A stretch of 63,998 bases of DNA, counting the filler, from Basidiobolus ranarum (taxonomy: Eukaryota), in NCBI GenBank assembly GCA_040143965.1. It is 3 parts of 3 records of this genome, joined end to end, with 100 filler letters (N's around TTAATTAATTAA, not from the genome) between each part and the next. Parts side by side here need not be neighbours in the genome. Positions count along the whole stretch, not along the records: positions 44,622 to 63,998 come from JASJQH010000251.1; 2 more parts are not named here. One strand, 5' to 3'. A model generated the notes under the pieces. It saw only the letters and a program-made list of their open reading frames with translations. It ran no database searches and had not been told where the DNA came from. The translations under genes were made by a program, and so were the position numbers. Position 1 is the stretch's first letter, and each line of letters begins with the position of its first letter. Of this stretch, positions 48,879 through 63,998 are shown in pieces.

Positions 48879-50488
48879 TTATTTGTATGGATTAAAGCGA
48901 GAAGAGCTTGGAGTGGCCTACCAAAATAGCTAAGTAAATGGGTTCGATAGAACATGCAGGTAAGTGATAGTGAAGTACCTTGGCTACAGAAGGCGATTGC
49001 TTTGAGGTAAAAGAGCTTACTGTATTGGTGTTATTAGCATCCCAGTAGCAAAGTTTGGCATCTTCTCCACCAGAAAGCAATATTCCAGACTAAACAGAGT
49101 ATTAGAAATCAAGTAGACTTAAGTTGTGAGTTTTTATAAGCTGGACTTACTGGAACATCCCAATATACACTTCGAACAATATCCGTATGACCACCACTCA
49201 AAATATCACATAGTTGAAGAGAGTCAGCATTCACATGGAAGATACCCATATCACCACTAATAAAAACCCATGTTAGTATCGCTTAGCTAACTTTGCTTAA
49301 CTAAAATTCGACAAAAACTTACTCGATTGTGCCTCCTAGTAAGTACAATCTCTGAGCAGAGGTGTCATAACGACAATCGATTGCATAGTTCAAGGGGAAT
49401 TGCTGTTCTACCGCTTGGCGTGTATCTCCGAAATTAGCCAGTACCTCGCCCTATCAACGCATGGTTAGTTTCAACGAGAGTAAAGGATCGGATCGTTTAG
49501 AGTAATTTCACAAAGCCTCATGTCGACACCTTTCATAATATATAGTAACATATACCTCATGGTTCCAGAGGGAGAAGGTCTCCATATGATTTAGACAATA
49601 AATGTACTCGAAAGATGGGCCAAAGAATCCGATTTTCGATACAGATGATCCAGTGTTAGCCACCGCCAACAGAGCATCATCTTCATTGATAGAGATATCA
49701 TAGGTACATATGAGTCCGTCTACTGCACCACTAGACAACTTCTTCGGGTCATTTGGATGAAAGCGAACCTGTAATTCTATCGTTAATTACCGGGTTTTAT
49801 GAATGATACTCTATGTTGGGGCTTACTTGAGTGACATCGTCGTTATGAGATTCAACGAATTCTGTTACTAAATTATTGGTTCGAACGTCCCTAAAGAAAA
49901 TTTAATCTTTAATTTCCAAGATGTATGATTCAGTTAATAGTATAATATTCCCACCAGAATAGAATCTTGGCGTCGTCATCAAGCTCTGTTCCAGCGGCAA
50001 GTGCAGTATCGTCCGAATTAAAGTCAAAAGTGAGTAGAGACTCGTTCTTCTTAGCTATTTCAAGATTTGTAAGTTCATGTTCAACCAAATTTGGAGAATA
50101 AATGTTCTTCTCTTTCGACTTTTCGTCACTAAAGAAAAGGTGGTATATATTTAAATACACACTTACATTTAAAGATTTGAGCAGGGCCGTCATTACTCCT
50201 CAAGTCCCATACGGCGACGGAACCGTCTTTAGAGGAAGATATCAAGATATTATCTTGTTTGTATTTAATCTCGGTCACATTGTCTTTATGAAATTGGAGT
50301 GTATTCAAAATACTCAACTTCTCTCTATCGTATAGTTTTATTTGGTGATTAGAGGCAGAGACGGCGAATTGTGTTGAATTGACGGCACTTGCCACGTCGA
50401 AGATGTAGCTTTGGTCGAGAGAAAATAAAGTGGACTTCTTCAACCATAATTGCGGAAATATGTTGGAATTAGGTTTGGTTAACACCAT
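48879..50488 (-). CDS. WD40-repeat protein, WDR89/YNL035C family, multi-exon
   Basis: SSSKDGSVAVWDLR, AAGTEL, ESHNDDVTQVRFHP, SGAVDGLICTYD, GGHTDIVRSVYW, SGGEDAKLCYW, C-terminal RFNPY. Confidence 0.88.
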
Positions 50489-51000
50489 ATCTATATAATG
50501 TGTACTTATATCTATATCTCAAGGAATAGTTGGTAACCAAAGTTTCGAACTATTAATTATAATATGATAGTCATCAAATAGTACCAATGGTAGTGAACAT
50601 GTTGAAAAATTTCAAAAAAAAAATGGTTTCCTGAATCATTGGAAAAACTCAATCTGCGTATAGACTGATTTCATAAACTCCGTAAGCAAATAGTTACACT
50701 CATAGGGTTGCCATTAAAGAAAGTTCGATTGATTGATTGCACACCCTAACCCTCTCTTTAAACAAGTTAAATTATAGCATACATCTCTGAGAGTGGAGCT
50801 GAGCCAGATGTTTGCAAATATTTAGAACCAGTCATGTTATATGTAACGTAATCTACAATGTACCAGGTTTAGAAATGTACGAGGTGGCTTAGTACAATTT
50901 GTTTTCTCTTTAAGACTCTCAAACAACAGAACATCACCAAAGAGTTCCGTCCCATTTTCTATTAAACCAAGTAACTCAAAAGAAACGAAGAAATACAAAA

Positions 51001-51597
51001 ATGAAATTCACCACAGGCATTAGCTTAACATTCTTGCTGCTTGTACTCACACATAATTCTTTGGTTCAAGGAAAGTTCGACCCTGACGAGGAGCATAGTA
51101 ACTATGGTGATATGGAAAAGGCTCGCTCGTAAGTAACATATAATTCATTTTTGGTTCTTTACTCAATACTGTTATGGAGGAACTTTATTGATGAGACAGA
51201 CAGAAGACTATGGTTATTTACTTTTTGTGTTTAAGGTTTGTGAAGTCATTTCTGGCACAAAAAAAGTCAAAGGACTCTTTGGAGGTGAATGAAGCGGACA
51301 CTCCTTACTTCCTTTTCAATGTATATGACACTGATGGTGACGGTTACTTGGACGGAAATGAATTGCGTAATGGATTCAAGGAGTTTGAAGAAAAGGAGAA
51401 CGGTAAAAAACACCATTCTTTAGAGGCATTGAATGAATACGTGGATCATGTATTAGGAGAAGATGATATTGACGGAGAGTAAGTTGAACAAACTGAAGAT
51501 ATCTCTTTGAAACTCATCACTAACCTTACCATTTTCTAGCGGTAAAATATCCATGGAAGAGTATTTAGCTAGTCAGGAATACCATGAATCCGATTAA
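51001..51597 (+). CDS. Secreted/luminal two-EF-hand protein, MCFD2/Ssp120-like, 3 exons
   Basis: Signal peptide; EF-hands DTDGDGYLDGNEL and DIDGDGKISMEEY (second hand split by an intron). Confidence 0.85.
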
Positions 51598-52815: not shown

Positions 52816-54765
52816 CTAAAAGTCAGTTGATACAGCATCTAAACAAATCCATAGAGTTTTAGTGGGCATATTTCTAAAGGATGATGATGATGGTCGGCCT
52901 ACCTTTCCTGCTTCGTACGGTATCATTTACCATTCGATCCACGAATTCATCAAATGCCTCAACATGCTCTTTCAAAGAGGTTTTCTTGTAGTCTAAATCA
53001 ATGCTGGTGTTAACATTGACGGCATTTAGTGTACTAACGCAAAGACATACATACCTGCCAACTTGCGCTCATTATCTTGTACAGGGTTTAGTTGGTCATA
53101 GTCATTGATCTCTTGTATAAGCTGGCTGACGGTAGGCACTTCTAGGGGATTGAACTCATCGCAAGTCTTGGGATCAATGGGCACACATACACGTCCTAAA
53201 CAGTAATTTAATACCATCCAATCCAGCAATATATCTGCAATAAATACCTGTCTTGGGATGCACACAGAACGGACTCTTCAACAAGTGATTGATTTGAATG
53301 GACACATTTCCATCAAGTCTAGGGTAGCAGTATTGAAAGATAATATCTCGCTTGGCTAACTCGAGGCCTTTTGTCTTCTGCTTAGGTTTCTATTGGAACA
53401 GCCATGGTGAGATTAGTTGGTCAAGAGATGATATTACTAAGTTAGATGGCATACCCTTGAGTTACAGGCCAATTCGATTTCATGTGCTAGATCATCCCAG
53501 CGTTCGGTGGACGGGCGGCCAGGATTGTTTTCCCATTTTTGAGATAATTCGTTGCGTATATCTGTTATATGACGAATTCACATCAATAAAAATACTTGCG
53601 AAATTAAATGAAGACTCATACTTTCGTCAGGGATAAGAGCCAACACTTTAGAGTAATTCTCCTTTTCACGTAGAACATCCTGATCCTTTAAGATCAGTTG
53701 GGAAAAGCTTTCTTTTAAGATATCCAATGATGCACTAGATATCAACAATAATCGTTTAGTACCACAACAATTTCCCAAAGCTTGATTTCAGAAACTCACA
53801 CGAGTGCTGGATGCAGTGTGCCGGGTAGATTCACCTTCTTTGTTTGCTGAACACCACCCTAGATATTTGGTGAGAGTGAGCGTGAGACTTTACTAATGAA
53901 CGTTAACTTTCTGATTATTCTTGAAATTACCCTGATAACTTCTATAAAGCCTACAATGGCTTTACGTCCTTCATTCGTAAGTTTACGTGCTCGCTCATCA
54001 CATATCCAACAATGGACACCACGACGACCACTGTAGACCCATAGTATATTTTCGAAGCCAAAATCCTCTATTGTCAGAAGTTAGTGGTGTATCCAAGTAG
54101 CACGAACATATAGGACTGAAAGTTACCACGCAATACCCGATCAATGACTTTAATGGATATCGTCATGAACTCCCAGCATTTCAAACAAATCTCGCCTCCG
54201 CTGTCATAATGAGTTAGTAAGTTCAACCAGGATTCAACTTTACCAAACACATTAAAATGGAGGTAAACTTACGAGCAACAAGTACGTATCTCATCGTAAT
54301 CTGTCATATCTATATCAAATACTAGCTCTTTCTCAATAGGTTGAAATGCCCCCGGTTTAATGGCCTTCTTATCTTTAGGCTATGGGTAAAGGAAACTATG
54401 TTGAGTATTTATCAACCTACGTCGACTTTAAGAAGATTCGAAAAACCTTGGCAGTATATACAGCACCGATATCGATTTTGGATGGACAAAGTCTAAGCAA
54501 TTCTTCCTTAAATTCCTTCCCGTCTTTGAAGGATAAATACCGCAGATATGTATCATTTCCCAAGGTGAAACTGAATTCTCGGTTCGTGAAAGATTTCGTA
54601 GGAACTACGGTTGAAACGGTTCTCAGTTAAATCGAATGGATTCTATATGAGTAAGTTATTCAAACTCTTACCATTATCATAAGTTAACCACCGAAAACAT
54701 GACTTGTGCGGGAACAGTCGTTGATAGAATTGACGTAAAAGTATTGGCAAATTCCCTTCCTCCAT
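52816..54765 (-). CDS. PRI1: DNA primase small (catalytic) subunit, multi-exon
   Basis: [74 protein letters not shown]. Confidence 0.96.
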
Positions 54766-55106: not shown

Positions 55107-55751
55107 TTAATTTGCAGTGTCCAACTTAGAATCGACTTTTTTCTCATCATTCCCATTCCTAACCGTAGAACTTTGTTCACCCAAATTTTCGACTTTTGGT
55201 TTCTTTGCGTTTGAGGCTTGATTATGCTTACGTTTTTGACGTTTAGCTCGATTTTTAGCCGTTTTTTCGTCAGCTTTTTGTTGAAGTTCTTGACGTTTTT
55301 GGTCGAATTCTAATTGCTCTTGTTCCTAAGAAAAAGGGGAAAATCTTAATAAACATTAAAATATATTAACAGACGTGAAAAGAAAACGTACAGCTTTGGT
55401 TTCCTCGTCCATCATTTTTGTGCGCGCGTATTCGCGACGTCTATGAGCTCTATAAATGTGAAATTCTCCACTACCAGCACCGGCACTTGAGCCTTTGACA
55501 GGGGAGGAAGGTTAACTAAAGGGGTCTTTCAAAGTATTGGAATAGATCTACTGCGTACCTGGCACATTTCGAACAATGTCCTTTGGTGCTTTGAGGGTTT
55601 TGTGTTTAGGCTCTGGTAAGGTAATCGGTTTATCTACACGTTGTAATAGCTTATCTAGTTGCTTCTTTTGTAAATCATAAGGGGTTAAGTTGTGTCGTTT
55701 CTGTGTTTCAACTTCATCGTCACCTGAAAGGTTTGGGGAGTCGTGTGGCAT
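55107..55751 (-). CDS. PRKRIP1: PRKR-interacting protein 1 (DUF1168), 3 exons
   Basis: [29 protein letters not shown]...[13 protein letters not shown]. Confidence 0.92.
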
Positions 55752-56447: not shown

Positions 56448-57143
56448 TTAATTGTGCCACATAAAGCCTACTCCCGTGCCCACTTGAAAAGTGACAAATG
56501 TTAGCACATAAGGACCTCCATTATAATTGTAGTTGCTTGTATAGACACTACCATCTGGATTGATCCGTTCAACGACAGCTACATGGCCAAGATTTCCAAC
56601 TCCTTGAAACCCTGGCTGTATCGAAATAATGGACGGTGTCTTGGCTTGGTTTGAAACGGTCCATCCAGCATAATTGCGGGCTTTGGATGGCCAAGTAAGA
56701 GCATCGCCCGACCAACTTACATGATATCCAGTCAACTGAGCATAGCGAGCATCTGCCCAATCAGTACACTGTCCGTTTTTAAAATGGAATTGAAGAGAGC
56801 CAACAGAACTAGTGGAATTAGTAGGGCCACGGGATCCATCATTTGCAGAAGTGCGATCATTGTTGTTATTACCCCTACTATTCCCAGTATTTCCTCTGTG
56901 ATTTCCCAAGGCATCGTTAATAGAGTGATCTTTGTTAGCTTTAGGATTTCTTGTATTTCGATTTCTGTTCGAGTGGTTCCCCGACGAGTAACCTGGTTCT
57001 CTCTTTGTAAGTACTCCAGTAAAATTCTTCTTTTGAGAAACACTTGTATTCAGTCTCTTTACAGTGTTGCTCAGTGGTAGGGGTTGCACGGTGAATTCAG
57101 TGATGCAAAGCACCAAAATGAAGAAAGTAGTGATCGAGTGCAT
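56448..57143 (-). CDS. Secreted CHAP-domain protein 1 (peptidoglycan amidase/endopeptidase fold), intronless
   Basis: Signal peptide MHSITTFFILVLC, KR site, N/G/S-rich linker, GQCTDWA...GHVAVVE...TSNYNY. Confidence 0.92.
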   Translation of the reverse strand: MHSITTFFILVLCITEFTVQPLPLSNTVKRLNTSVSQKKNFTGVLTKREPGYSSGNHSNRNRNTRNPKANKDHSINDALGNHRGNTGNSRGNNNNDRTSANDGSRGPTNSTSSVGSLQFHFKNGQCTDWADARYAQLTGYHVSWSGDALTWPSKARNYAGWTVSNQAKTPSIISIQPGFQGVGNLGHVAVVERINPDGSVYTSNYNYNGGPYVLTFVTFQVGTGVGFMWHN

Positions 57144-57704
57144 CCTAGTTGGATTCACTTTGGATAAGAAGGGAAGTACACTTGAATGGTGGTTTTCCTT
57201 CGCCATATATATATGAATACTCAAGTCACATATTGAATGACTGGTTACTCGATATAGGAAAGTTGGACCGGGAAAGATGATCGTTGTAGTTAGCGAGGCC
57301 AGTGTAAAATGATCATTAGTTATTGAGGTTGGGATTGATCAAATTCTTAATTACTATCATTTCAGTTGGGTTGATAGGATTCGTTGTTTGATCCTTATTA
57401 ATCAACTAATTGAACGCATCCAACCAAAAGATGCTGCAAAGAAAGAGAAATATCTTGGAGTGGCTGGTGGCGTTGTATTCGAGTAGACAGTCAGTAATTT
57501 CATTCGTAGAAATGGAATCTGATGTAGATATGCAAGATAGAGTTAGAATCAACTCCTAATGATGAACCAAGTAGTATGCACAAGTGTGTTACTTTATTTC
57601 TGCAAAGTTTGGATCATTCGAACAATACTGACTAGCAATATTGATATACAAAACTCAACATCAGTGTCACAATTACCTCACAGAGGATTTCATGAAATGA
57701 GCAA

Positions 57705-58370
57705 CTAATTGTGTGAAATGAAGCTCACACCATTGCCTGGCTTGAAGGTGGCATATTTTTTTATATAAGGGCCTCCGTTGTAATTGTAGTTGCTCGTATA
57801 TGCATCTCCGTTAGACTCGACCCTTTCAACAACGGCAACGTGTCCAGCGCTACCAGTTCCTTGAACTCCAGGTTGTATTACTATTATACTAGGCTGCTTT
57901 GCTTTAGTCGATACTGTCCACCCTTGAGTACTCTGGGCCTTGCTAGTCCATGTTCGAGCATCACCCCACCACTGTATGTGATGCCCAGTAAGTTGAGCAT
58001 AACGCGCATCAGCCCAATCGGTACATTGTCCATTGTTAAAGCGAAATTCCAGTTTTCCAATAACTCCAGTGGCGGAGTCCCCATTACTGTTTGAATTTTT
58101 GGCGCTGCCTTTGTTGTAAGTAGGAGTCTTTGGGGTGGTATTACTGCCTCCATTTTTTGGATTATAATTACCACCTGAGTTATTGTATCCGTTGGTATTC
58201 TTTGGATTGGAACCCCAGGAGTTTTTGTACGAGTAATAGTAGCGAGGTTTTAAGATGGAACTCTCTGCTTGGGTTGAGCTCTCAGCATGAAGCTCATGTA
58301 CTGGCAAAGCGTGTATCCATGAGATAGCTACAGTGATCAACAAAGTGCATAGAAAGAAGCCGGAGTACAT
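57705..58370 (-). CDS. Secreted CHAP-domain protein 2, intronless
   Basis: Signal peptide MYSGFFLCTLLITVAISWIHA; CHAP domain with catalytic Cys (GQCT) and His (GHVAVVE). Confidence 0.92.
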   Translation of the reverse strand: MYSGFFLCTLLITVAISWIHALPVHELHAESSTQAESSILKPRYYYSYKNSWGSNPKNTNGYNNSGGNYNPKNGGSNTTPKTPTYNKGSAKNSNSNGDSATGVIGKLEFRFNNGQCTDWADARYAQLTGHHIQWWGDARTWTSKAQSTQGWTVSTKAKQPSIIVIQPGVQGTGSAGHVAVVERVESNGDAYTSNYNYNGGPYIKKYATFKPGNGVSFISHN

Positions 58371-59085
58371 GATTTTTTCCACTTTTCCAGAAAGTTGGGG
58401 ATGCTGATGTAAAGACAAGAATAATGTCACTGTCTGGCTTGTACAGGTGAATATATACCAGTGTGAAAATGCGAGTGTATCGAGCATTCAATATTTTAAT
58501 AAAATTTGTACCTCCAAAGAGTAATGCGGTCTAGGGAGCTCATCTTCGAGAAAGATTGAACTGCAGTTGGTTTCTCCAATTAGTTGAATTAATAGTGGCC
58601 ATATGTATGCCTTAGGTGCATAACCTACATGAGAGTTTAGTATTCGGTAGTCAATCTCTGCACTCTCCTTTTTACACCTGATTTATTCCTCATATGGATA
58701 CATGCTGTTAACTAATTGGTGAGTTTTCTCGAGGACTCGTTTTTCGTAGGCACCCGATCTATTTTATAGAAGAATATTGGCATCTTGTGACTAGTAGTAT
58801 TTGATAGTCACATATGATCCTGGCTACAAACATCGAGCTCTCTCCATATACATATTACCTCTACCCCTACCCCTACCCCTAGACCTTTCTACTTGGCGAA
58901 ATTGTCTCGCGTGCTAATTGCGAGCCTACTTTATAAAGTATGAATCATTCAATTTTATCTGGTTTTTCATTGGTTTATTTATTGAGATGACAACCAGTGT
59001 CGAAAGAACTCCGCTATAATCTAACAAGTCAATTGAGATTTGAATACAGGAATAGAACACAGGAATTGAACACAGATGAATTGGT

Positions 59086-59916
59086 TCAATTAAACCAAAT
59101 GAAATCAACGCCATTTCCTGTCTTAAAGGTTGCGCTTTTTTGAATGTAAGGACCACCATTGTAATTATAATTACTTGTTGATACACTACCAGAGGAATCG
59201 ATCTTTTCCACAACGGCAACATGCCCAGGACTACCAGTTCCCTGGACTCCAGGCTGTATGACAATTATACTTGGTTGTTTAGGAGTCGCTGACACAGTCC
59301 AACCTGAAGCACTTCGTGCTTTACTAGCCCAGGTTCTAGCGTCGCCAGACCAACTAATGTGGTGACCTGTAAGTTGAGCATAACGAGCATCCGCCCAATC
59401 AGTGCATTGTCCGTTGTGAAAGCGAAACTCAAGTTTGCCCGATCCAGTGTTTCCTTCGGTTTCTTTACTATTTTTCTTACTGCCATCAGTGGAAGTCGCA
59501 CTATCATCATTATTTTGCTTTTTTTTGCTTCCAGTGCTTGATTGAGAGCCATAATCACTGCCTTCACTATCATCATTGTTGTCGTCATTGTTTGAGCTAT
59601 TTTTGGTATTTTCTCCATAACTGCTGTTATTATTTCCCTTCGATTTTCTCTTTCCGCTGCCGCTTTGATTGTATCCCTCGTTATCAGATCCGCTATTACC
59701 TCCATTGCTATAGTCGCTAGAATTATTATTGTTCCCTTTTCTTCTGTAATCTCCAGAGGGTCCGTAGGAATAATACCTTCCTCGGCGATGAATGGTTGAA
59801 CCAGTCAACGATTCATCATTTAATAAGCCGATATTGGTATTGCTGAAAGATGGAAGAGCTTGTAAGGCAACGGCAAAGTAAAGAGCCACGGCAAGACATT
59901 TAGAAATAGAATGCAT
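59086..59916 (-). CDS. Secreted CHAP-domain protein 3, intronless
   Basis: Signal peptide MHSISKCLAVALYFAVALQA, RR site, long N/S/G/D linker, CHAP domain. Confidence 0.92.
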   Translation of the reverse strand: MHSISKCLAVALYFAVALQALPSFSNTNIGLLNDESLTGSTIHRRGRYYSYGPSGDYRRKGNNNNSSDYSNGGNSGSDNEGYNQSGSGKRKSKGNNNSSYGENTKNSSNNDDNNDDSEGSDYGSQSSTGSKKKQNNDDSATSTDGSKKNSKETEGNTGSGKLEFRFHNGQCTDWADARYAQLTGHHISWSGDARTWASKARSASGWTVSATPKQPSIIVIQPGVQGTGSPGHVAVVEKIDSSGSVSTSNYNYNGGPYIQKSATFKTGNGVDFIWFN

Positions 59917-60583: not shown

Positions 60584-60876
60584 CTAAATTAGGGAGACTT
60601 TTACCTTTATAATCCACACATGGCTAGGGTCAGGGATAGGCCCAGAGCTAGCATATTAGGGAGAGAGTTGGGATAGCAACTGAGTGTTTTGTGGACTATC
60701 CTTCACATTTGTGACATCATAGTTCGAACAATGATTTTGTCAATGCGTATATAAACAACTCTCTTCTCTACAATGACATTGATGAAATGTAGGAGAATGT
60801 ATTATGGTCGATCCACGTGATGTCGGAAGTATGTTATATACTCGTTTGTAGCAAGAACCTCGCTAATGATTTCCTG

Positions 60877-62053
60877 ATGATGATTTCCATTGTACATGGA
60901 TATATATTTTTCATTGGTTTGGTATACTCCCATCCATATTATCATGACTTGGTTAAACTGAATAAGGGAAAAGAGGTTTACCTATTCGAAACTGAATATG
61001 ACAACAATCCTGAGTTCAATGGTGACTTCGAAAGCAATGATACTACAGGTTGGCTGTTCCCTGAATTGGACTCTCCTACTCATACTTTCAGCGAAACTTA
61101 TGAGCGCTGGGAGAGTTTTGATTTTACCCCACCAGCCTTTCATAACTGGGGGATAACCAAAGAGAGATACGGACACCAAAATATAGTGATTATTTCTGAT
61201 CCAACTGACTCCAACACAACTGTACTGAAAGTGATCTATCCGAAAGGTAGTCGAAATCCGTCTCATTCTCCTCTAGGTGGAGCTGGCTATGAATCCACCC
61301 CAATCTCCATTTTGGATGGTATTCGACAAACTGCGCGATTATCATATCAAGTGTACTTCCCCGAAGAGTTCAATTTTACGCAAGGTAATGGAATAGTTGT
61401 AGGTTTTATAAGTATTACTCAGCTTCTCATATGATATTACTTCTTGACTATTTAGGTGGGAAATTACCGGGTCTTTATGGAGCTAGTGCAGAGTGCTCTG
61501 GTGGAAATTCCGCCCAAAATTGCTTTAGTGCCAGGTAATGTATAAATCATGTACCCTCTTCTGGATACGGTTCTGATGCTTTTTCTTATCGTATAGATTC
61601 ATGTGGCGTGAAGAAGGACTTGGTGAGATTTACCTTTATGTACCAAAGATGGCACATCATCTCCCTAGCCTCTGTCAAGTTCCACCTGTATCCGTGTGTG
61701 ATCCTAAATATGGGTTCTCGCTTGGTCGTGGAAGTTTTCGATTCAAAAGAGGAGCTTGGAATAAGCTGAGTGTAGCGGTCCGAGTTAACCAGGTTCCTGA
61801 TGAACCTACCGGACAACTACGAGTATGGTACGACGATGAAGTGGTGATAGATTATAATCAACTAATATGGAGAGTGAATGATACGGTAGGCTACACTGGT
61901 ATAGACTTCGAGACTTTTTTTGGAGGATCCAGTGACCGTTTTAATACTCCAATTGATACATACACTCTCTACAAAGACTTTCGGCTTGTAGTTGGACAAA
62001 ATGTAGAACAAATAGAATCCACATCAGGTGAAGTTGCGTCCACTTCTGAATAG
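60877..62053 (+). CDS. Secreted polysaccharide lyase family 14 (alginate/glucuronan lyase) 1, 3 exons
   Basis: LKVIYPKGSRNP, LSYQVYFPEEFNF, GGKLPGLYG, FSARFMWR, SLGRGSFRF, FETFFGGS; N-terminal hydrophobic signal. Confidence 0.9.
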
Positions 62054-63024
62054 AATGGATGTATGGTATATCTCATACCATACTGAATAGATACCTAAAC
62101 TCATATTCTAATTGGAATATGTTAATTAATCAATAGTGATATGGTTTGAAGCATCATAACCTTAGAATATGAAGATGTGAAATAAAAATACGAAACAAAG
62201 TGCAAAGCTAGTTGGAACCCTGAAAATTTGTCTGCATTTATGGATTGAATGAGAGTTTCTGGTGACCATTCCCAGAAGTATTAAACTACGGATCTCCACA
62301 CTCGTGTTCCTAAACATAGCCTCCTTTAATGATTACACTTGACTATGCAAGTATTGCTCCACAACAGAAAATTCTCATGAAAGTTCACCTTTTGAGACAT
62401 CATTTGTGCGTGTGATAATGTATTCGAAGAATCCAATCTACCACTACTTCATGTTTACCTTGGCTAAGACACCTTAGTTGGAGTTTAATTAATCCTAAAA
62501 CTCCATCATCTGAGTCGGTTCTCTCGATGAAATATTTCCTCCTCAGGACCCGATCAATCTGACTCTAACAATCCTCGTACTACTGCCACACTACTCTAGT
62601 TTATATAGTCACCTTAATCCGATCCCATTTCAATCTAATCTAGCCCAATGCTAATCAATGCTTGCTTGTATCATATTCAGTTCAAAATAGACTTTCGTTG
62701 AATCCGGATGAACCTGACAATAGAGGTATATAATTAGAGGTCGGTTATTCGCTTTCTATGCATGTACAAATAAATACCAACAAAGTCATTGAAGGAGAAT
62801 TTGTATTACTAAAATCGTAGCAACTGACGGTTCAGTTGAGATAGATCAATGACTAGAGCATGACAGTCTCACACCGGGAATTTTACCCTCCTCAATAAAC
62901 AATGAAAGGAGTCACGTGGTGTGGGATGTTATTTATATATCCACTCCAGAGGGAAACCTTTCGTTTGGTGTAACCCGCTAACTAACCAAACACACTAACC
63001 GAACCCATTAACCATTAACCTTCA

Positions 63025-63998
63025 ATGATGACCTTGATACCACTCTGTATATTTTCTGTTAGTTTGGTGTACTCCCATCCATTTTACTATGATAACCTAG
63101 ATACTGATCACTTGGGCACTAGTAACTTGGATGCTAGTAACCTAAATCAAGAGGTTCACAGATTCGAATCAAGCCACAGCCAGAATGAATATGACAATAA
63201 ATCCGAATTTTACACCAACTCTCACCAAAATGACAAAGCATCTAGTTGGTTCTTTCCCGAACTGGATCCCCCTACCTATTCCTATGGTGATATCAGTGAA
63301 ACATACCAACGCTGGGAGAGTCTTAACTTCACTCCACCGGCCTTCATAAATTGGGGAGTAACCAAGGAAAGATACGGATATGAGAATAAAGAACTCGTTC
63401 CTGATCCCACTGATTTTAATACCACTGTGCTGAAAGTGATCTATCCCAAAGGTAGTCGAAATCCAGCACATTATCCACGAGGAGGTATTGGATTTGATGC
63501 AGTTCCAATTTCACTTCAAGATGGAGTTGGCCAAACTGTTCGATTATCGTATCAAGTATATTTCCCAGAGGATTTCGATTTCAAACATGGTAAACAATAA
63601 GATGGTTAATCATTTTCTAACATGACGATATTTATTATCATTCAACAATTTCTAACATGATATTGACCATTTAGGTGGAAAATTACCCGGCCTTTATGGA
63701 GGTCACTCCGGGTGCTCTGGAGGAAGATCAGCTAAGAATTGCTTTAGTGCCAGGTAAAATATAAATCAAGTAGAATCTACTGGTTACGATTTACTGGGCA
63801 TAATGTTAATGTTTTTTCATATTATGTAGATTCATGTGGCGTAAAGAAGGACTTGGTGAGATTTACCTTTATGTACCAAAGATGGCACAGCATCTCCCTA
63901 GCCTCTGTCAAGTTCCACCTGTATCCGTGTGTAATCCTGAATATGGGTTCTCGCTTGGTCGTGGAAGTTTTCGATTCAAAAGAGGAGCTTGGAATAAG
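63025..63998 (+). CDS. Secreted PL14 polysaccharide lyase 2 (3' end beyond window)
   Basis: Paralogue of 60877-62053 with the same intron positions; signal peptide MMTLIPLCIFSVSLVYS. Confidence 0.9.

What the first reader, a model, noticed from the sequence alone, without database searches (positions are those of the whole stretch)
56448..59916. Tandem trio of intronless, secreted bacterial-type CHAP peptidoglycan hydrolases in a fungus
Seen: three co-oriented paralogues, each with signal peptide, pro-region, low-complexity N/G/S linker and a C-terminal CHAP domain keeping Cys (GQCT) and His (GHVAVVE). All lack introns while neighbouring PRI1, PRKRIP1 and PL14 genes are intron-rich, and they share a contig with those fungal genes, which argues against contamination. 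Known: CHAP domains cleave peptidoglycan and are typical of bacteria and phages (SsaA, PcsB, LysK); fungi have no peptidoglycan. Inference: a horizontally acquired, domesticated and amplified antibacterial enzyme family. From memory the RY.QL.G..V.W and QP.VQG..GHVAVVE signature resembles Ktedonobacteria (Chloroflexi) CHAP proteins; this is unverified.
Basis: partly seen in the sequence, partly recalled or inferred. Interest (0 to 1): 0.88.

Follow-up and report, generated by a model that had tools for sequence, protein, structure and literature searches.

The report
Bacterial-origin CHAP cell-wall hydrolases in Basidiobolus
Three neighbouring intron-free genes in a Basidiobolus fungus encode secreted-looking enzymes of a bacterial type that cuts bacterial cell walls; the family seems to have come once, long ago, from Ktedonobacteria-like soil bacteria into the ancestor of Basidiobolus and the insect-killing Entomophthorales, and then multiplied.

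Summary
Three co-oriented, uninterrupted minus-strand genes (56448-57143, 57705-58370, 59086-59916) each encode a hydrophobic N-terminal leader, an N/S/G-rich linker and a C-terminal CHAP domain (Pfam E 2e-13 to 4e-15) that keeps Cys and His. They lie between intron-split PRI1, PRKRIP1 and PL14 genes, with no N in 50-64 kb.

The window is Basidiobolus ranarum or something nearly identical. The family has about 19-21 clusters (at 90% identity) per Basidiobolus genome. New here: it also occurs in Entomophthora, Massospora and Conidiobolus, and no other named eukaryote turned up. All 39 fungal domains form one clade (100/98).

The best non-fungal matches are Ktedonobacteria-type: 62 of 77 best genome loci are so named and the other 15 are Chloroflexota MAGs, at 50-63% identity against at most 41% for my outgroup rows. 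They share an Asn/Asp at the third catalytic position, where 16 of 18 outgroups have Glu. GC3 is fungal (0.33-0.42 against 0.59).

Two AU tests did not reject alternative placements, so the donor rests on similarity and branch support. The best reading is a single old bacterium-to-fungus transfer followed by tandem expansion.

Peptidoglycan hydrolysis, secretion and expression are inferred, not shown. It is a new member of a known kind.

The parts
56448..57143 (-). CHAP gene g1, 231 aa: leader (about 57078-57143), N/S/G-rich linker, CHAP domain 56451-56801. The ORF extends upstream to 57206, but the downstream Met opens the hydrophobic leader.
   Evidence: ORF. Pfam CHAP 51 bits, E 2e-13. Leader, linker and GC3 0.37. 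Identical to a 231-aa database gene call. Falls in an 8-row Basidiobolus clade, 99/97.
57705..58370 (-). CHAP gene g2, 221 aa: leader, 80-aa linker, CHAP domain 57708-58058. The ORF extends to 58487.
   Evidence: ORF. Pfam CHAP 54.9 bits, E 1.2e-14.. Identical to a 221-aa database gene call.
59086..59916 (-). CHAP gene g3, 276 aa: leader, 135-aa linker, CHAP domain 59089-59439. Catalytic Cys171 and His232; Asn249 and Asn251.
   Evidence: ORF. Pfam CHAP 56.7 bits, E 3.6e-15. Invariant columns C171, H232, E237, N251 across fungal homologues. AF2 model of the domain: pLDDT 90.1, pTM 0.85. Foldseek TM 0.82 to the S. aureus amidase CHAP 5t1q.
53177..54080 (-). Flanking fungal gene: DNA primase small subunit (PRI1), split by intron(s).
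   Evidence: PF01896 on 53862-54080 (E 1.1e-16, profile 36-91) and on 53177-53389 (E 9.5e-12, profile 119-160), in different frames. The top protein hit is 'p48 polypeptide of DNA primase [Basidiobolus ranarum]', 100% identical over the exon.
55110..55511 (-). Flanking fungal gene: DUF1168/PRKRIP1 family, interrupted.
   Evidence: PF06658 on 55359-55511 (E 1.7e-17, profile 27-62) and on 55110-55325 (E 6e-7, profile 63-127), with a stop-containing gap between them.
60793..62053 (+). Flanking gene: polysaccharide lyase family 14, interrupted. A second PL14 copy begins at 63019.
   Evidence: PF21294 on 60793-61434 (profile 3-61), on 61577-62053 (profile 88-215, E 2.8e-38) and on 63019-63600 (profile 4-61).

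Best explanation
The three genes are tandem paralogues of a CHAP (Cys-His amidase/peptidase, MEROPS C51) family. A Ktedonobacteria-like bacterium (Chloroflexota) donated it once to an ancestor of Entomophthoromycotina, the group that holds Basidiobolus and the Entomophthorales.

After the transfer, three things happened. The bacterial N-terminal cytoplasmic tail and membrane anchor were replaced by a eukaryotic cleavable leader and a disordered N/S/G-rich linker with glycosylation sequons. Codon composition drifted to that of the fungus. In Basidiobolus the gene multiplied, mostly by tandem duplication, to about 19-21 clusters (at 90% identity) per genome.

The proposed mechanism is that the protein is secreted and its C-terminal papain-like domain (Cys171-His232-Asn249 in g3) cleaves an amide or peptide bond of peptidoglycan in bacteria around the hyphae (gut, dung, soil). 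This would lyse competitors or free nutrients.

Shown: domain identity, catalytic residues, fold, linkage to fungal genes, taxonomic distribution, and purifying selection in the sense that dN stays low while dS is saturated.

Inferred: secretion, expression, peptidoglycan as the substrate, which bond is cut, and the ecological role.
For: Family and fold:
- Pfam CHAP scores above cut-off in all three genes.
- The AF2 domain model has pLDDT 90.1. Its best PDB matches are all peptidoglycan-hydrolase CHAP domains: 5t1q TM 0.82, rmsd 1.9; phi812 hub CHAP 0.76; 2k3a 0.70; LysGH15 0.67 and LysK 0.66. Glutathionylspermidine amidase reaches only E 0.03.
- Sequence hits to 2k3a (3e-12), 2lrj, 9eum and 5t1q.
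- Cys is kept in 39 of 39 fungal rows and His in 38 of 39.
- Atlas structural neighbours pair CHAP with LysM, SLT, glucosaminidase, M23 or phage lysozyme domains.

Bacterial origin and donor:
- phmmer over 1.84 billion representatives gave 13 hits at E<=1e-30. Two are window-encoded (g3 and g1) and 11 are Basidiobolus-named. Bacterial-type proteins of 300-390 aa follow from 1e-29.
- The bacterial proteins that carry a name are Ktedonobacteraceae, Thermogemmatispora or Chloroflexota.
- Of the 77 best genome loci, 62 are Ktedonobacteria-named, 13 are 'uncultured Chloroflexia' and 2 are 'Chloroflexota'.
- Among 301 sampled Chloroflexota genomes, 21 have E<=1.3e-19. Then there is a gap to 3.8e-14.
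- The best phage match is 39% identical. The plasmid rows listed are 32-45%.
- Basidiobolus domains are 50.4-62.8% identical to Ktedonobacteria-type loci, against 32.1-41.3% to my 18 outgroup rows.
- ML tree of 115 rows x 118 columns (LG+C20): the fungi form one clade at 100/98, and fungi plus Ktedonobacteria-type rows form one clade at 95/94. The 12 other-Chloroflexota rows and 5 of the 6 phage/plasmid rows sit outside the 99/81 fork. The Rhodococcus plasmid row (end branch 2.49) attaches just outside the 95/94 clade.
- The third catalytic position is Asn/Asp in 38 of 39 fungal rows and 219 of 252 Ktedonobacteria-type rows, but Glu in 16 of 18 outgroup rows.

Not contamination:
- PRI1, PRKRIP1 and PL14, all interrupted, flank the trio, and there is no N in 50-64 kb.
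- Database gene calls identical to the three proteins, and a PRI1 named B. ranarum that matches the window's exon, are all recorded on a contig of 19,377 bp.
- GC3 is 0.33-0.42, against a median of 0.586 in 76 Ktedonobacteria-type homologue stretches.
- Homologues in other fungi lie on contigs of 113-370 kb.

Age and constraint:
- dN is 0.13-0.26 with dS saturated. DNA similarity is confined to the domain.
- Basidiobolus (97/83) and Entomophthorales (99/87) are reciprocally monophyletic.

Among the named hits, no eukaryote outside Entomophthoromycotina appears. The same database does hold Kickxellomycotina, Zoopagomycotina, Mucoromycota, chytrids and Dikarya, as the PRI1 search shows.
Against: - Neither AU test rejected an alternative. 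Holding all 58 Ktedonobacteria-type rows together without the fungi costs 7.35 lnL (p 0.392). Holding them with the other Chloroflexota, so that the fungi fall with the phage/plasmid rows, costs 26.4 lnL (p 0.213). With only 118 columns, nestedness and even the specific sister group are not statistically secured.
- The enclosing forks inside the Ktedonobacteria-type set are unstarred (84/88, 89/93, 87/91), and the bootstrap had not fully settled.
- The patterns for the genome scan came from my own alignment of top hits, which favours Ktedonobacteria-like motifs.
- Outgroups are few (18 rows), and 12 of them are unnamed.
- Of the 46 rows I grouped as Ktedonobacteria in the tree, 7 are titled only 'uncultured Chloroflexia'.
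- The Entomophthorales rows are long branches (1.07-1.31), so their union with Basidiobolus could be helped by branch attraction, although the mixture model gave 100/98.
- Nothing shows expression, secretion or activity.
- The third residue is Asn, not the Glu of the characterised staphylococcal enzymes.
Confidence: 0.75

Rival explanations
1. The origin by transfer is the same, but the proteins no longer act on peptidoglycan. They might serve as amidases or peptidases on another substrate (for example a fungal wall or host molecule, or a glutathionylspermidine-like amide). They might instead trim peptidoglycan fragments so that an animal host does not sense bacteria or the fungus, rather than kill bacteria.
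For: The CHAP superfamily includes non-wall amidases: Gsp amidase and trypanothione synthetase-amidase appear in the fold search at TM 0.56-0.61. The fungal proteins carry no recognisable wall-binding module such as LysM or SH3b; Pfam finds only CHAP. The third catalytic residue differs from that of the characterised staphylococcal enzymes. The family persists in obligate insect pathogens (Entomophthora, Massospora), which live inside hosts.
Against: The closest structures and sequences are all peptidoglycan hydrolases, and Gsp amidase is far weaker (E 0.03 against 9e-7). The nearest bacterial relatives are extracytoplasmic, membrane-anchored proteins of wall-bearing bacteria. The Asn variant is shared with 190 of 252 Ktedonobacteria-type rows, so it is not a fungal novelty.
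Confidence: 0.17
2. The donor was not a Ktedonobacterium. It could have been another, unsampled bacterial lineage, or a phage or mobile element, whose CHAP domain merely resembles the Ktedonobacteria type. Alternatively, Basidiobolus and Entomophthorales acquired it separately, or one fungus passed it to the other.
For: The AU tests do not reject alternative placements. Of 148 unnamed metagenome rows, 41 are less than 60% identical to any titled locus. CHAP domains are common in phage tail lysins and on conjugative plasmids. Basidiobolus is called a 'rogue' taxon (passage in PMC9391592).
Against: Every named close bacterial hit is Ktedonobacteria or Chloroflexota. The best phage match is 39% identical and the plasmid rows listed are 32-45%. 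The shared Asn/Asp state points the same way. The Thermogemmatispora homologues sit as a chromosomal tandem pair next to malate/lactate dehydrogenase and a tetrapyrrole methylase, not in an evident phage. Fungal monophyly is 100/98.
Confidence: 0.06
3. Bacterial contamination or a chimeric assembly: the CHAP genes are not part of the fungal genome.
For: The genes are intronless with a bacterial-type domain. No read data could be examined.
Against: The sequence is contiguous and free of N between interrupted PRI1/PRKRIP1 and PL14 genes. The genes have fungal GC3, eukaryote-style leaders and N/S/G linkers where the bacteria have a membrane anchor. Database gene calls identical to the three proteins are recorded on a 19,377-bp contig, as is a B. 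ranarum-named PRI1 that matches the window's exon. There are dozens of paralogues in two Basidiobolus species and in three other genera. No bacterial protein exceeds about 63% identity.
Confidence: 0.01
4. An ancient eukaryotic or fungal gene that was inherited vertically and lost everywhere except Entomophthoromycotina.
For: The family is shared by two orders whose gene tree mirrors the species split.
Against: No other named eukaryote appears among the hits, although the database holds those taxa. The fungal clade sits within or beside one bacterial class rather than outside the bacteria. The genes lack introns in an intron-bearing neighbourhood.
Confidence: 0.01

Closest known systems
Membrane-anchored CHAP proteins of Ktedonobacteria (for example the Thermogemmatispora tikiterensis CHAP domain-containing protein WP_112429574.1, 308 aa; Ktedonobacteraceae MAG MBO0793193.1)
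   Same: C-terminal CHAP domain, 50-63% identical to the Basidiobolus domains. There is an identical 21-residue run around the catalytic His between g1 and the Thermogemmatispora protein. Both have Asn at the third catalytic position, no other Pfam domain, and tandem gene arrays.
   Different: The bacterial proteins start with a low-complexity cytoplasmic tail and one transmembrane helix. A linker follows that carries a conserved short Ala/Thr-rich motif. The fungal ones have a short cleavable-looking leader and an N/S/G-rich linker with N-glycosylation sequons. GC3 is 0.59 in the bacteria against 0.33-0.42 in the fungus.
Staphylococcal SsaA-like CHAP proteins and phage CHAP lysins (PDB 5t1q, 2k3a, 2lrj, 9eum/9euf phi812 hub, 4olk LysGH15, 4csh LysK CHAPK)
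   Same: Same fold (TM 0.64-0.82). The GQCT and GH.A.VE motifs and the NYNGGP turn are conserved. These are the experimentally studied peptidoglycan-cleaving CHAP domains (names as given by PDB depositors).
   Different: Only 19-37% identical. They have Glu where the fungal and Ktedonobacteria-type proteins have Asn. They are usually combined with wall-binding or other lytic modules. The bond cleaved cannot be read across.
Secreted CHAP family of the oomycete Saprolegnia parasitica (Jiang et al. 2013, PMC3681718; passages and Table 3 read)
   Same: A eukaryotic osmotroph associated with aquatic animals that carries an expanded (7 genes) family of secreted CHAP proteins, attributed to bacterial transfer.
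   Different: It is a different eukaryotic kingdom. No donor is named in that paper. No Saprolegnia protein appeared among my hits, so it is probably an independent acquisition. I did not compare the sequences.
Other bacterial wall hydrolases domesticated by eukaryotes: GH25 lysozyme (Metcalf et al. 2014, PMC4241558; abstract seen) and tick Dae2 amidase (bioRxiv 10.1101/2020.04.10.036376; abstract seen)
   Same: The same kind of event: an antibacterial peptidoglycan-cleaving enzyme moved from bacteria to a eukaryote and kept as a secreted factor.
   Different: Different enzyme families (GH25 muramidase; Tae/NlpC-P60-type amidase) and different recipients. Those have experimental proof of antibacterial activity, which is lacking here.
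Horizontally acquired genes of Basidiobolus (Tabima et al. 2020, PMC7466969; passages read)
   Same: That paper reports 212-806 bacterial-origin candidate genes per genome. They are mostly intronless (61%), have fungal codon usage and are flanked by fungal genes, which matches these genes.
   Different: Its main text has no occurrence of 'CHAP', 'peptidoglycan' or 'Chloroflexi' and concentrates on secondary-metabolite genes. Its Tables S4 and S5, which I could not open, may list these genes. It treats transfers as Basidiobolus events, whereas this family predates the split from Entomophthorales.

Membership tests
CHAP domain (Pfam PF05257; MEROPS C51) | Profile score above the curated cut-off (26 bits) | tested here: met
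   51, 54.9 and 56.7 bits.
CHAP domain (Pfam PF05257; MEROPS C51) | Catalytic Cys at the N-terminus of helix 1 and catalytic His on a beta-strand | tested here: met
   GQCT and GHVAVVE are invariant in g1-g3. Cys is kept in 39 of 39 and His in 38 of 39 fungal rows. Both align with Cys/His of 2k3a, 2lrj and 9eum.
CHAP domain (Pfam PF05257; MEROPS C51) | Third polar residue (Asn/Asp/Glu) completing the triad. That this residue defines the family is recalled from Bateman & Rawlings 2003, which I did not read here. | tested here: met
   Asn249 (g3) aligns with the Glu of staphylococcal CHAPs, and Asn251 is invariant. The geometry in the model was not inspected.
CHAP domain (Pfam PF05257; MEROPS C51) | Papain-like alpha+beta fold | tested here: met
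   AF2 pLDDT 90.1, two helices followed by six strands. TM 0.82 and rmsd 1.9 to 5t1q.
Peptidoglycan hydrolase (functional class) | Cleaves a bond of peptidoglycan | not testable with these tools
   This rests only on similarity to characterised enzymes.
Secreted protein | Cleavable N-terminal signal peptide | tested here: inconclusive
   A hydrophobic core with KD 2.5-2.75 lies within residues 6-16, followed by HA-LP or QA-LP in g2 and g3; g1 has QP-LP. No dedicated predictor and no proteomics were available.
Bacterium-to-fungus xenologue | Fungal sequences form a clade within or beside one bacterial group, away from other groups | tested here: inconclusive
   In the free ML tree the fungi form one clade (100/98) inside a fungi plus Ktedonobacteria-type clade (95/94). 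AU tests did not reject the alternatives (p 0.392 and 0.213). The similarity gap and the shared Asn state support the link.
Bacterium-to-fungus xenologue | Patchy distribution: absent from other fungi | tested here: met
   The named eukaryotic hits are only Basidiobolus, Entomophthora, Massospora and Conidiobolus. The same database holds other fungal phyla. This means 'not found with these queries'; no fungal genome collection could be scanned.
Bacterium-to-fungus xenologue | Physically integrated in the recipient genome (not contamination) | tested here: met
   The trio is flanked by interrupted PRI1, PRKRIP1 and PL14 genes with no N. GC3 is fungal. Read coverage was not testable.

The most novel reading that the evidence does not exclude
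The CHAP xenologue is a rare genomic change shared by Basidiobolus and the Entomophthorales. On this reading, one transfer from a mycelial soil Ktedonobacterium entered their common ancestor, hundreds of millions of years ago. It would independently support placing the 'rogue' genus Basidiobolus inside Entomophthoromycotina. It would also give a relative-time link between Ktedonobacteria and this fungal lineage. The enzyme has since been kept under selection as a secreted bacteriolytic weapon or feeding enzyme, and it expanded about 20-fold in the gut-dwelling Basidiobolus.
Probability: 0.45. Interest if true: 0.65.

Novelty: new member of a known kind. Interest (0 to 1): 0.55.

Why it matters
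Fungi have no peptidoglycan, so a conserved and expanded family of bacterial wall-cutting enzymes in a gut and dung fungus points to direct enzymatic antagonism of bacteria, or feeding on them. This would add a protein arm to the chemical arsenal already ascribed to gene transfer in Basidiobolus.

The shared presence in Entomophthorales dates the transfer before the split of the two groups. That makes it a candidate marker for the disputed position of Basidiobolus. It also gives a possible cross-calibration between a bacterial class and a fungal subphylum.

The enzymes are small, have a single domain and carry a single Cys. This makes them easy candidates for testing as lysins.

Tried and rejected
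- Own genome: none is held, so copy number in this assembly could not be counted.
- Earlier notes of the scan: nothing for this place.
Single open pieces were scanned instead. Sixteen pieces gave no family (5, 9, 2).
- AU tests for nestedness and for the Ktedonobacteria link were both non-significant.
- dN/dS: dS is saturated, so no ratio could be given.
- Phage origin: the best phage match is only 39% identical (Twortvirinae tail lysins). Plasmid origin: the rows listed are 32-45%. Both were kept only as outgroups.
- Literature:
  - 0 papers hold both 'CHAP domain' and 'Basidiobolus'.
  - None of the 15 listed papers on Entomophthoromycotina terms holds 'CHAP domain' (439 papers matched at least 2 terms and only 15 were listed).
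  - 23 papers hold Ktedonobacteria + horizontal gene transfer + fungi. None of the 15 listed is about such a transfer, judging by title or abstract.
  - 12 papers hold Basidiobolus + peptidoglycan. The secretome paper PMC9391592 has no 'CHAP' or 'C51'.
  - Ciach et al. 2024 (PMC11291939) has no 'peptidoglycan', 'lysozyme' or 'amidase'.
  - PMC8778642 has no CHAP-domain mention; its 3 'chap' hits are other words, and it has 0 for 'C51'.
  - Supplementary tables of these papers were closed and may list the genes.

Full report
**What is there**

Taking the Met that opens a hydrophobic leader, the coding sequences are:
- g1: 56448-57143, 231 aa
- g2: 57705-58370, 221 aa
- g3: 59086-59916, 276 aa

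Two of these lengths equal database gene calls for identical proteins. Each protein scores above the Pfam CHAP cut-off (51-57 bits against 26). The three share GQCT and GHVAVVE and are 69-79% identical over the 117-aa domain, but only 47-52% overall.

Between leader and domain lies an 80-135-aa stretch that is 65-77% N/G/S/T/K/D and carries N-x-S/T sequons. No intron is needed: the frames are uninterrupted and the domain aligns end to end with bacterial proteins.

DNA similarity between the copies is limited to the domain (75% for g2-g3). dN is 0.13-0.26 while dS is saturated. These are therefore old duplicates under constraint.

**Surroundings**

- Upstream on the same strand are pieces of DNA primase small subunit (PF01896), at 53862-54080 and 53177-53389 in different frames.
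- Next come pieces of DUF1168/PRKRIP1 (PF06658), at 55359-55511 and 55110-55325.
- Downstream are two PL14 lyase genes, the first split between 61434 and 61577.
- There is no N between 50 and 64 kb.
- The primase exon is 100% identical to 'p48 polypeptide of DNA primase [Basidiobolus ranarum]'. That protein is recorded on a contig of 19,377 bp, the same length as the contig recorded for the three identical CHAP proteins.

The window is therefore B. ranarum or something nearly identical. The database records are consistent with the same gene neighbourhood lying on a second, shorter contig.

GC3 of the CHAP genes is 0.33-0.42 (window GC 0.386). The median is 0.586 in 76 Ktedonobacteria-type homologue stretches. 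Contamination is not a tenable reading.

**The family in fungi**

The word-indexed search gave 57 hits:
- 3 are the window's own proteins.
- 28 are Basidiobolus proteins (16 B. meristosporus, 12 B. ranarum), all 'Peptidase C51 domain-containing'.
- 26 are bacterial-type.

Further look-ups added 3 B. meristosporus clusters and 6 B. ranarum clusters. That makes about 19 and 18 (21 with the window's) clusters at 90% identity.

Several share contigs or have adjacent locus tags. Examples are K7432_012408/012409 on one 7,726-bp contig and K7432_005503/005504, which fits tandem growth. Because the window is itself B. ranarum-like, the 012408/012409 pair (84% and 57% identical to g3) is a second, paralogous g3-like/g2-like pair, not an orthologue.

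The unexpected result came from naming the long-branch rows that FastTree put next to Basidiobolus. They are Conidiobolus coronatus, Entomophthora muscae (3) and Massospora cicadina, plus one unnamed row. A profile search added 4 more Entomophthora proteins and 1 more Massospora protein.

No other eukaryote is named among the 120 listed of 140 hits. The same database returns primases from Kickxellomycotina, Zoopagomycotina, Mucoromycota, chytrids, Dikarya, plants and animals.

**Relatives in bacteria**

An index-free phmmer search of 1.84 billion representatives found 911 hits. Thirteen were at E<=1e-30, all window-encoded or Basidiobolus-named. The list then continues from 1e-29 with proteins of about 300-390 aa that carry the domain at the C-terminus.

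Those that carry names are Ktedonobacteraceae, Thermogemmatispora and 'Chloroflexota bacterium'.

A scan of one genome for each of 185,579 prokaryote species gave 360 confirmed relatives. Of the 77 best loci, 62 have Ktedonobacteria-class names, 13 are 'uncultured Chloroflexia' and 2 are 'Chloroflexota'. One caveat applies: the scan patterns were derived from my alignment of top hits.

In 301 sampled Chloroflexota genomes, 21 have a best E<=1.3e-19. The next is 3.8e-14, and 57 more are weaker. Three of those weak ones are unpublished genomes, and nothing here rests on them.

The best phage match is 39% identical, and the plasmid rows listed are 32-45%. Domain identity of Basidiobolus rows is 50.4-62.8% to Ktedonobacteria-type loci, against 32.1-41.3% to my 18 outgroup rows. 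For the Entomophthorales rows the figures are 42.5-49.5% against 29.6-38.1%.

Ktedonobacteria carry 4-14 CHAP genes per genome, often in tandem. The Thermogemmatispora pair lies beside malate/lactate dehydrogenase and a tetrapyrrole methylase, not in an obvious phage.

**Tree**

From 316 domain hits I kept 311 with full coverage, which gave 291 distinct rows. I merged bacterial rows at 72% identity (252 reduced to 143).

The careful tree used 115 rows:
- 33 Basidiobolus rows, including the 3 from the window
- 6 Entomophthorales-type rows
- 46 rows from titled loci
- 12 of the 97 unnamed representatives
- 12 rows from other Chloroflexota genomes
- 6 phage/plasmid rows

The results under IQ-TREE LG+C20 on 118 columns were:
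- Fungi form one clade (100/98).
- Basidiobolus is supported at 97/83 and Entomophthorales at 99/87.
- Fungi plus Ktedonobacteria-type rows form one clade (95/94).
- Other Chloroflexota and 5 of the 6 phage/plasmid rows sit outside the 99/81 fork. The sixth, the Rhodococcus plasmid row (end branch 2.49), attaches just outside the 95/94 clade.
- Inside, the fungi sit with Dictyobacter, strain brp13 and a Ktedonobacteraceae MAG protein, at unstarred forks (84/88, 89/93, 87/91).

The AU tests did not reject either alternative:
- Keeping all 58 Ktedonobacteria-type rows together without the fungi: delta lnL 7.35, p 0.392.
- Grouping them with the other Chloroflexota, away from the fungi: delta lnL 26.4, p 0.213.

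So 'nested in Ktedonobacteria' is the best tree but is not statistically secured.

An independent character agrees with the tree. The third catalytic position is Asn/Asp in 38 of 39 fungal rows and 219 of 252 Ktedonobacteria-type rows, but Glu in 16 of 18 outgroup rows.

**What changed on the way**

The bacterial proteins begin with a low-complexity tail, one transmembrane helix and a linker with a conserved Ala/Thr-rich motif. Pfam sees only CHAP in both the bacterial and the fungal proteins.

The fungal proteins have a short leader and an N/S/G linker instead. Around the catalytic His, g1 and the Thermogemmatispora protein are identical over 21 residues.

**Function**

The AF2 model of the g3 domain (42-sequence alignment) has pLDDT 90.1 and pTM 0.85. 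Foldseek against the PDB ranks peptidoglycan-hydrolase CHAP domains first:
- 5t1q: TM 0.82, rmsd 1.9, 34% identity
- phi812 hub CHAP: 0.76
- 2k3a: 0.70
- LysGH15: 0.67; LysK: 0.66

Glutathionylspermidine amidase comes far lower, at E 0.03. Sequence search agrees, with 2k3a at 3e-12. Atlas neighbours combine CHAP with LysM, SLT, glucosaminidase, M23 or phage lysozyme domains, and the nearest structural cluster is a Chloroflexota 'Peptidase C51' cluster.

I therefore commit to a secreted peptidoglycan amidase/endopeptidase used against, or to feed on, surrounding bacteria, with roughly 0.6 probability for that function on its own. Secretion, expression, substrate and the bond cut are all inference.

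**Literature**

I found no paper that describes this family:
- 0 papers hold 'CHAP domain' with 'Basidiobolus'.
- Further searches on Entomophthoromycotina, Ktedonobacteria and peptidoglycan gave nothing pertinent among the papers listed.
- Tabima et al. 2020 (passages read) report hundreds of intron-poor bacterial-origin genes in Basidiobolus with fungal codon usage. These genes fit that description, but the main text never uses the words CHAP, peptidoglycan or Chloroflexi.

A parallel exists in the oomycete Saprolegnia parasitica, which has 7 secreted CHAP genes ascribed to bacterial transfer. The general phenomenon is known from GH25 lysozymes and tick Dae2 (abstracts).

PMC9391592 (passage) calls Basidiobolus a 'rogue' genus that it resolves inside Entomophthoromycotina. 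A shared xenologue would bear on that placement.

**Verdict**

The correction is that the transfer is old and is shared with the Entomophthorales.

The caveats are that the donor is not secured by topology tests and that the antibacterial role is untested. This is a new member of a known kind of event, of moderate interest.

Noticed in passing
window 60793-62053 and 63019-63600 (+): Two neighbouring PL14 polysaccharide-lyase genes lie in tandem. The first is split by at least one intron. PL14 has a patchy distribution, but that statement is recalled and was not tested here.
   Followed up: partly
B. ranarum proteins P0002/P0006 (K7432_012408/012409), one 7,726-bp contig: A second adjacent g3-like/g2-like pair exists in B. 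ranarum. P0002 is 84% and P0006 is 57% identical to g3 over the aligned part. In the tree P0002 pairs with g3 and P0006 groups with g2. Since the window is itself B. ranarum-like, this looks like a segmental duplicate or a diverged second haplotype of the cluster.
   Followed up: partly
L013 753-1805 and 2416-3342; one search places G243:C54, G204:C39, G141:C1, G003:C1, G033:C1: The closest bacterial homologues also stand in tandem pairs or triplets in Ktedonobacteria-type genomes. The fungal copies are monophyletic, so the fungal trio is not an inherited array.
   Followed up: partly
g2 residues about 42-52, g3 about 44-52; P0003, P0006: A short Tyr-rich motif preceded by Lys/Arg-Pro/Gly-Arg lies about 20 residues after the leader. 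It is conserved in g2, g3 and their B. meristosporus and B. ranarum relatives, and is weaker in g1. It might be a processing site or a binding motif, but this is untested.
   Followed up: no
alignment of 309 CHAP domain rows: One of the 33 Basidiobolus rows has Tyr in place of the catalytic His, and a few Ktedonobacteria-type rows lack the Cys. These may be inactive paralogues.
   Followed up: no
Entomophthorales homologues P0142, P0171, P0172: The Entomophthorales proteins carry long Pro/Gln/Lys-rich repeats in place of the N/S/G linker, and extra Cys residues in and before the domain. Linker composition has been replaced lineage by lineage.
   Followed up: no
window, outside 50-64 kb: The window holds 176 N somewhere before 50 kb. 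Their position was not looked up.
   Followed up: no
window 50129-50518 (-) and 51195-51482 (+): There is a WD40-repeat piece and an EF-hand piece. Ordinary eukaryotic genes fill the stretch upstream of PRI1.
   Followed up: no
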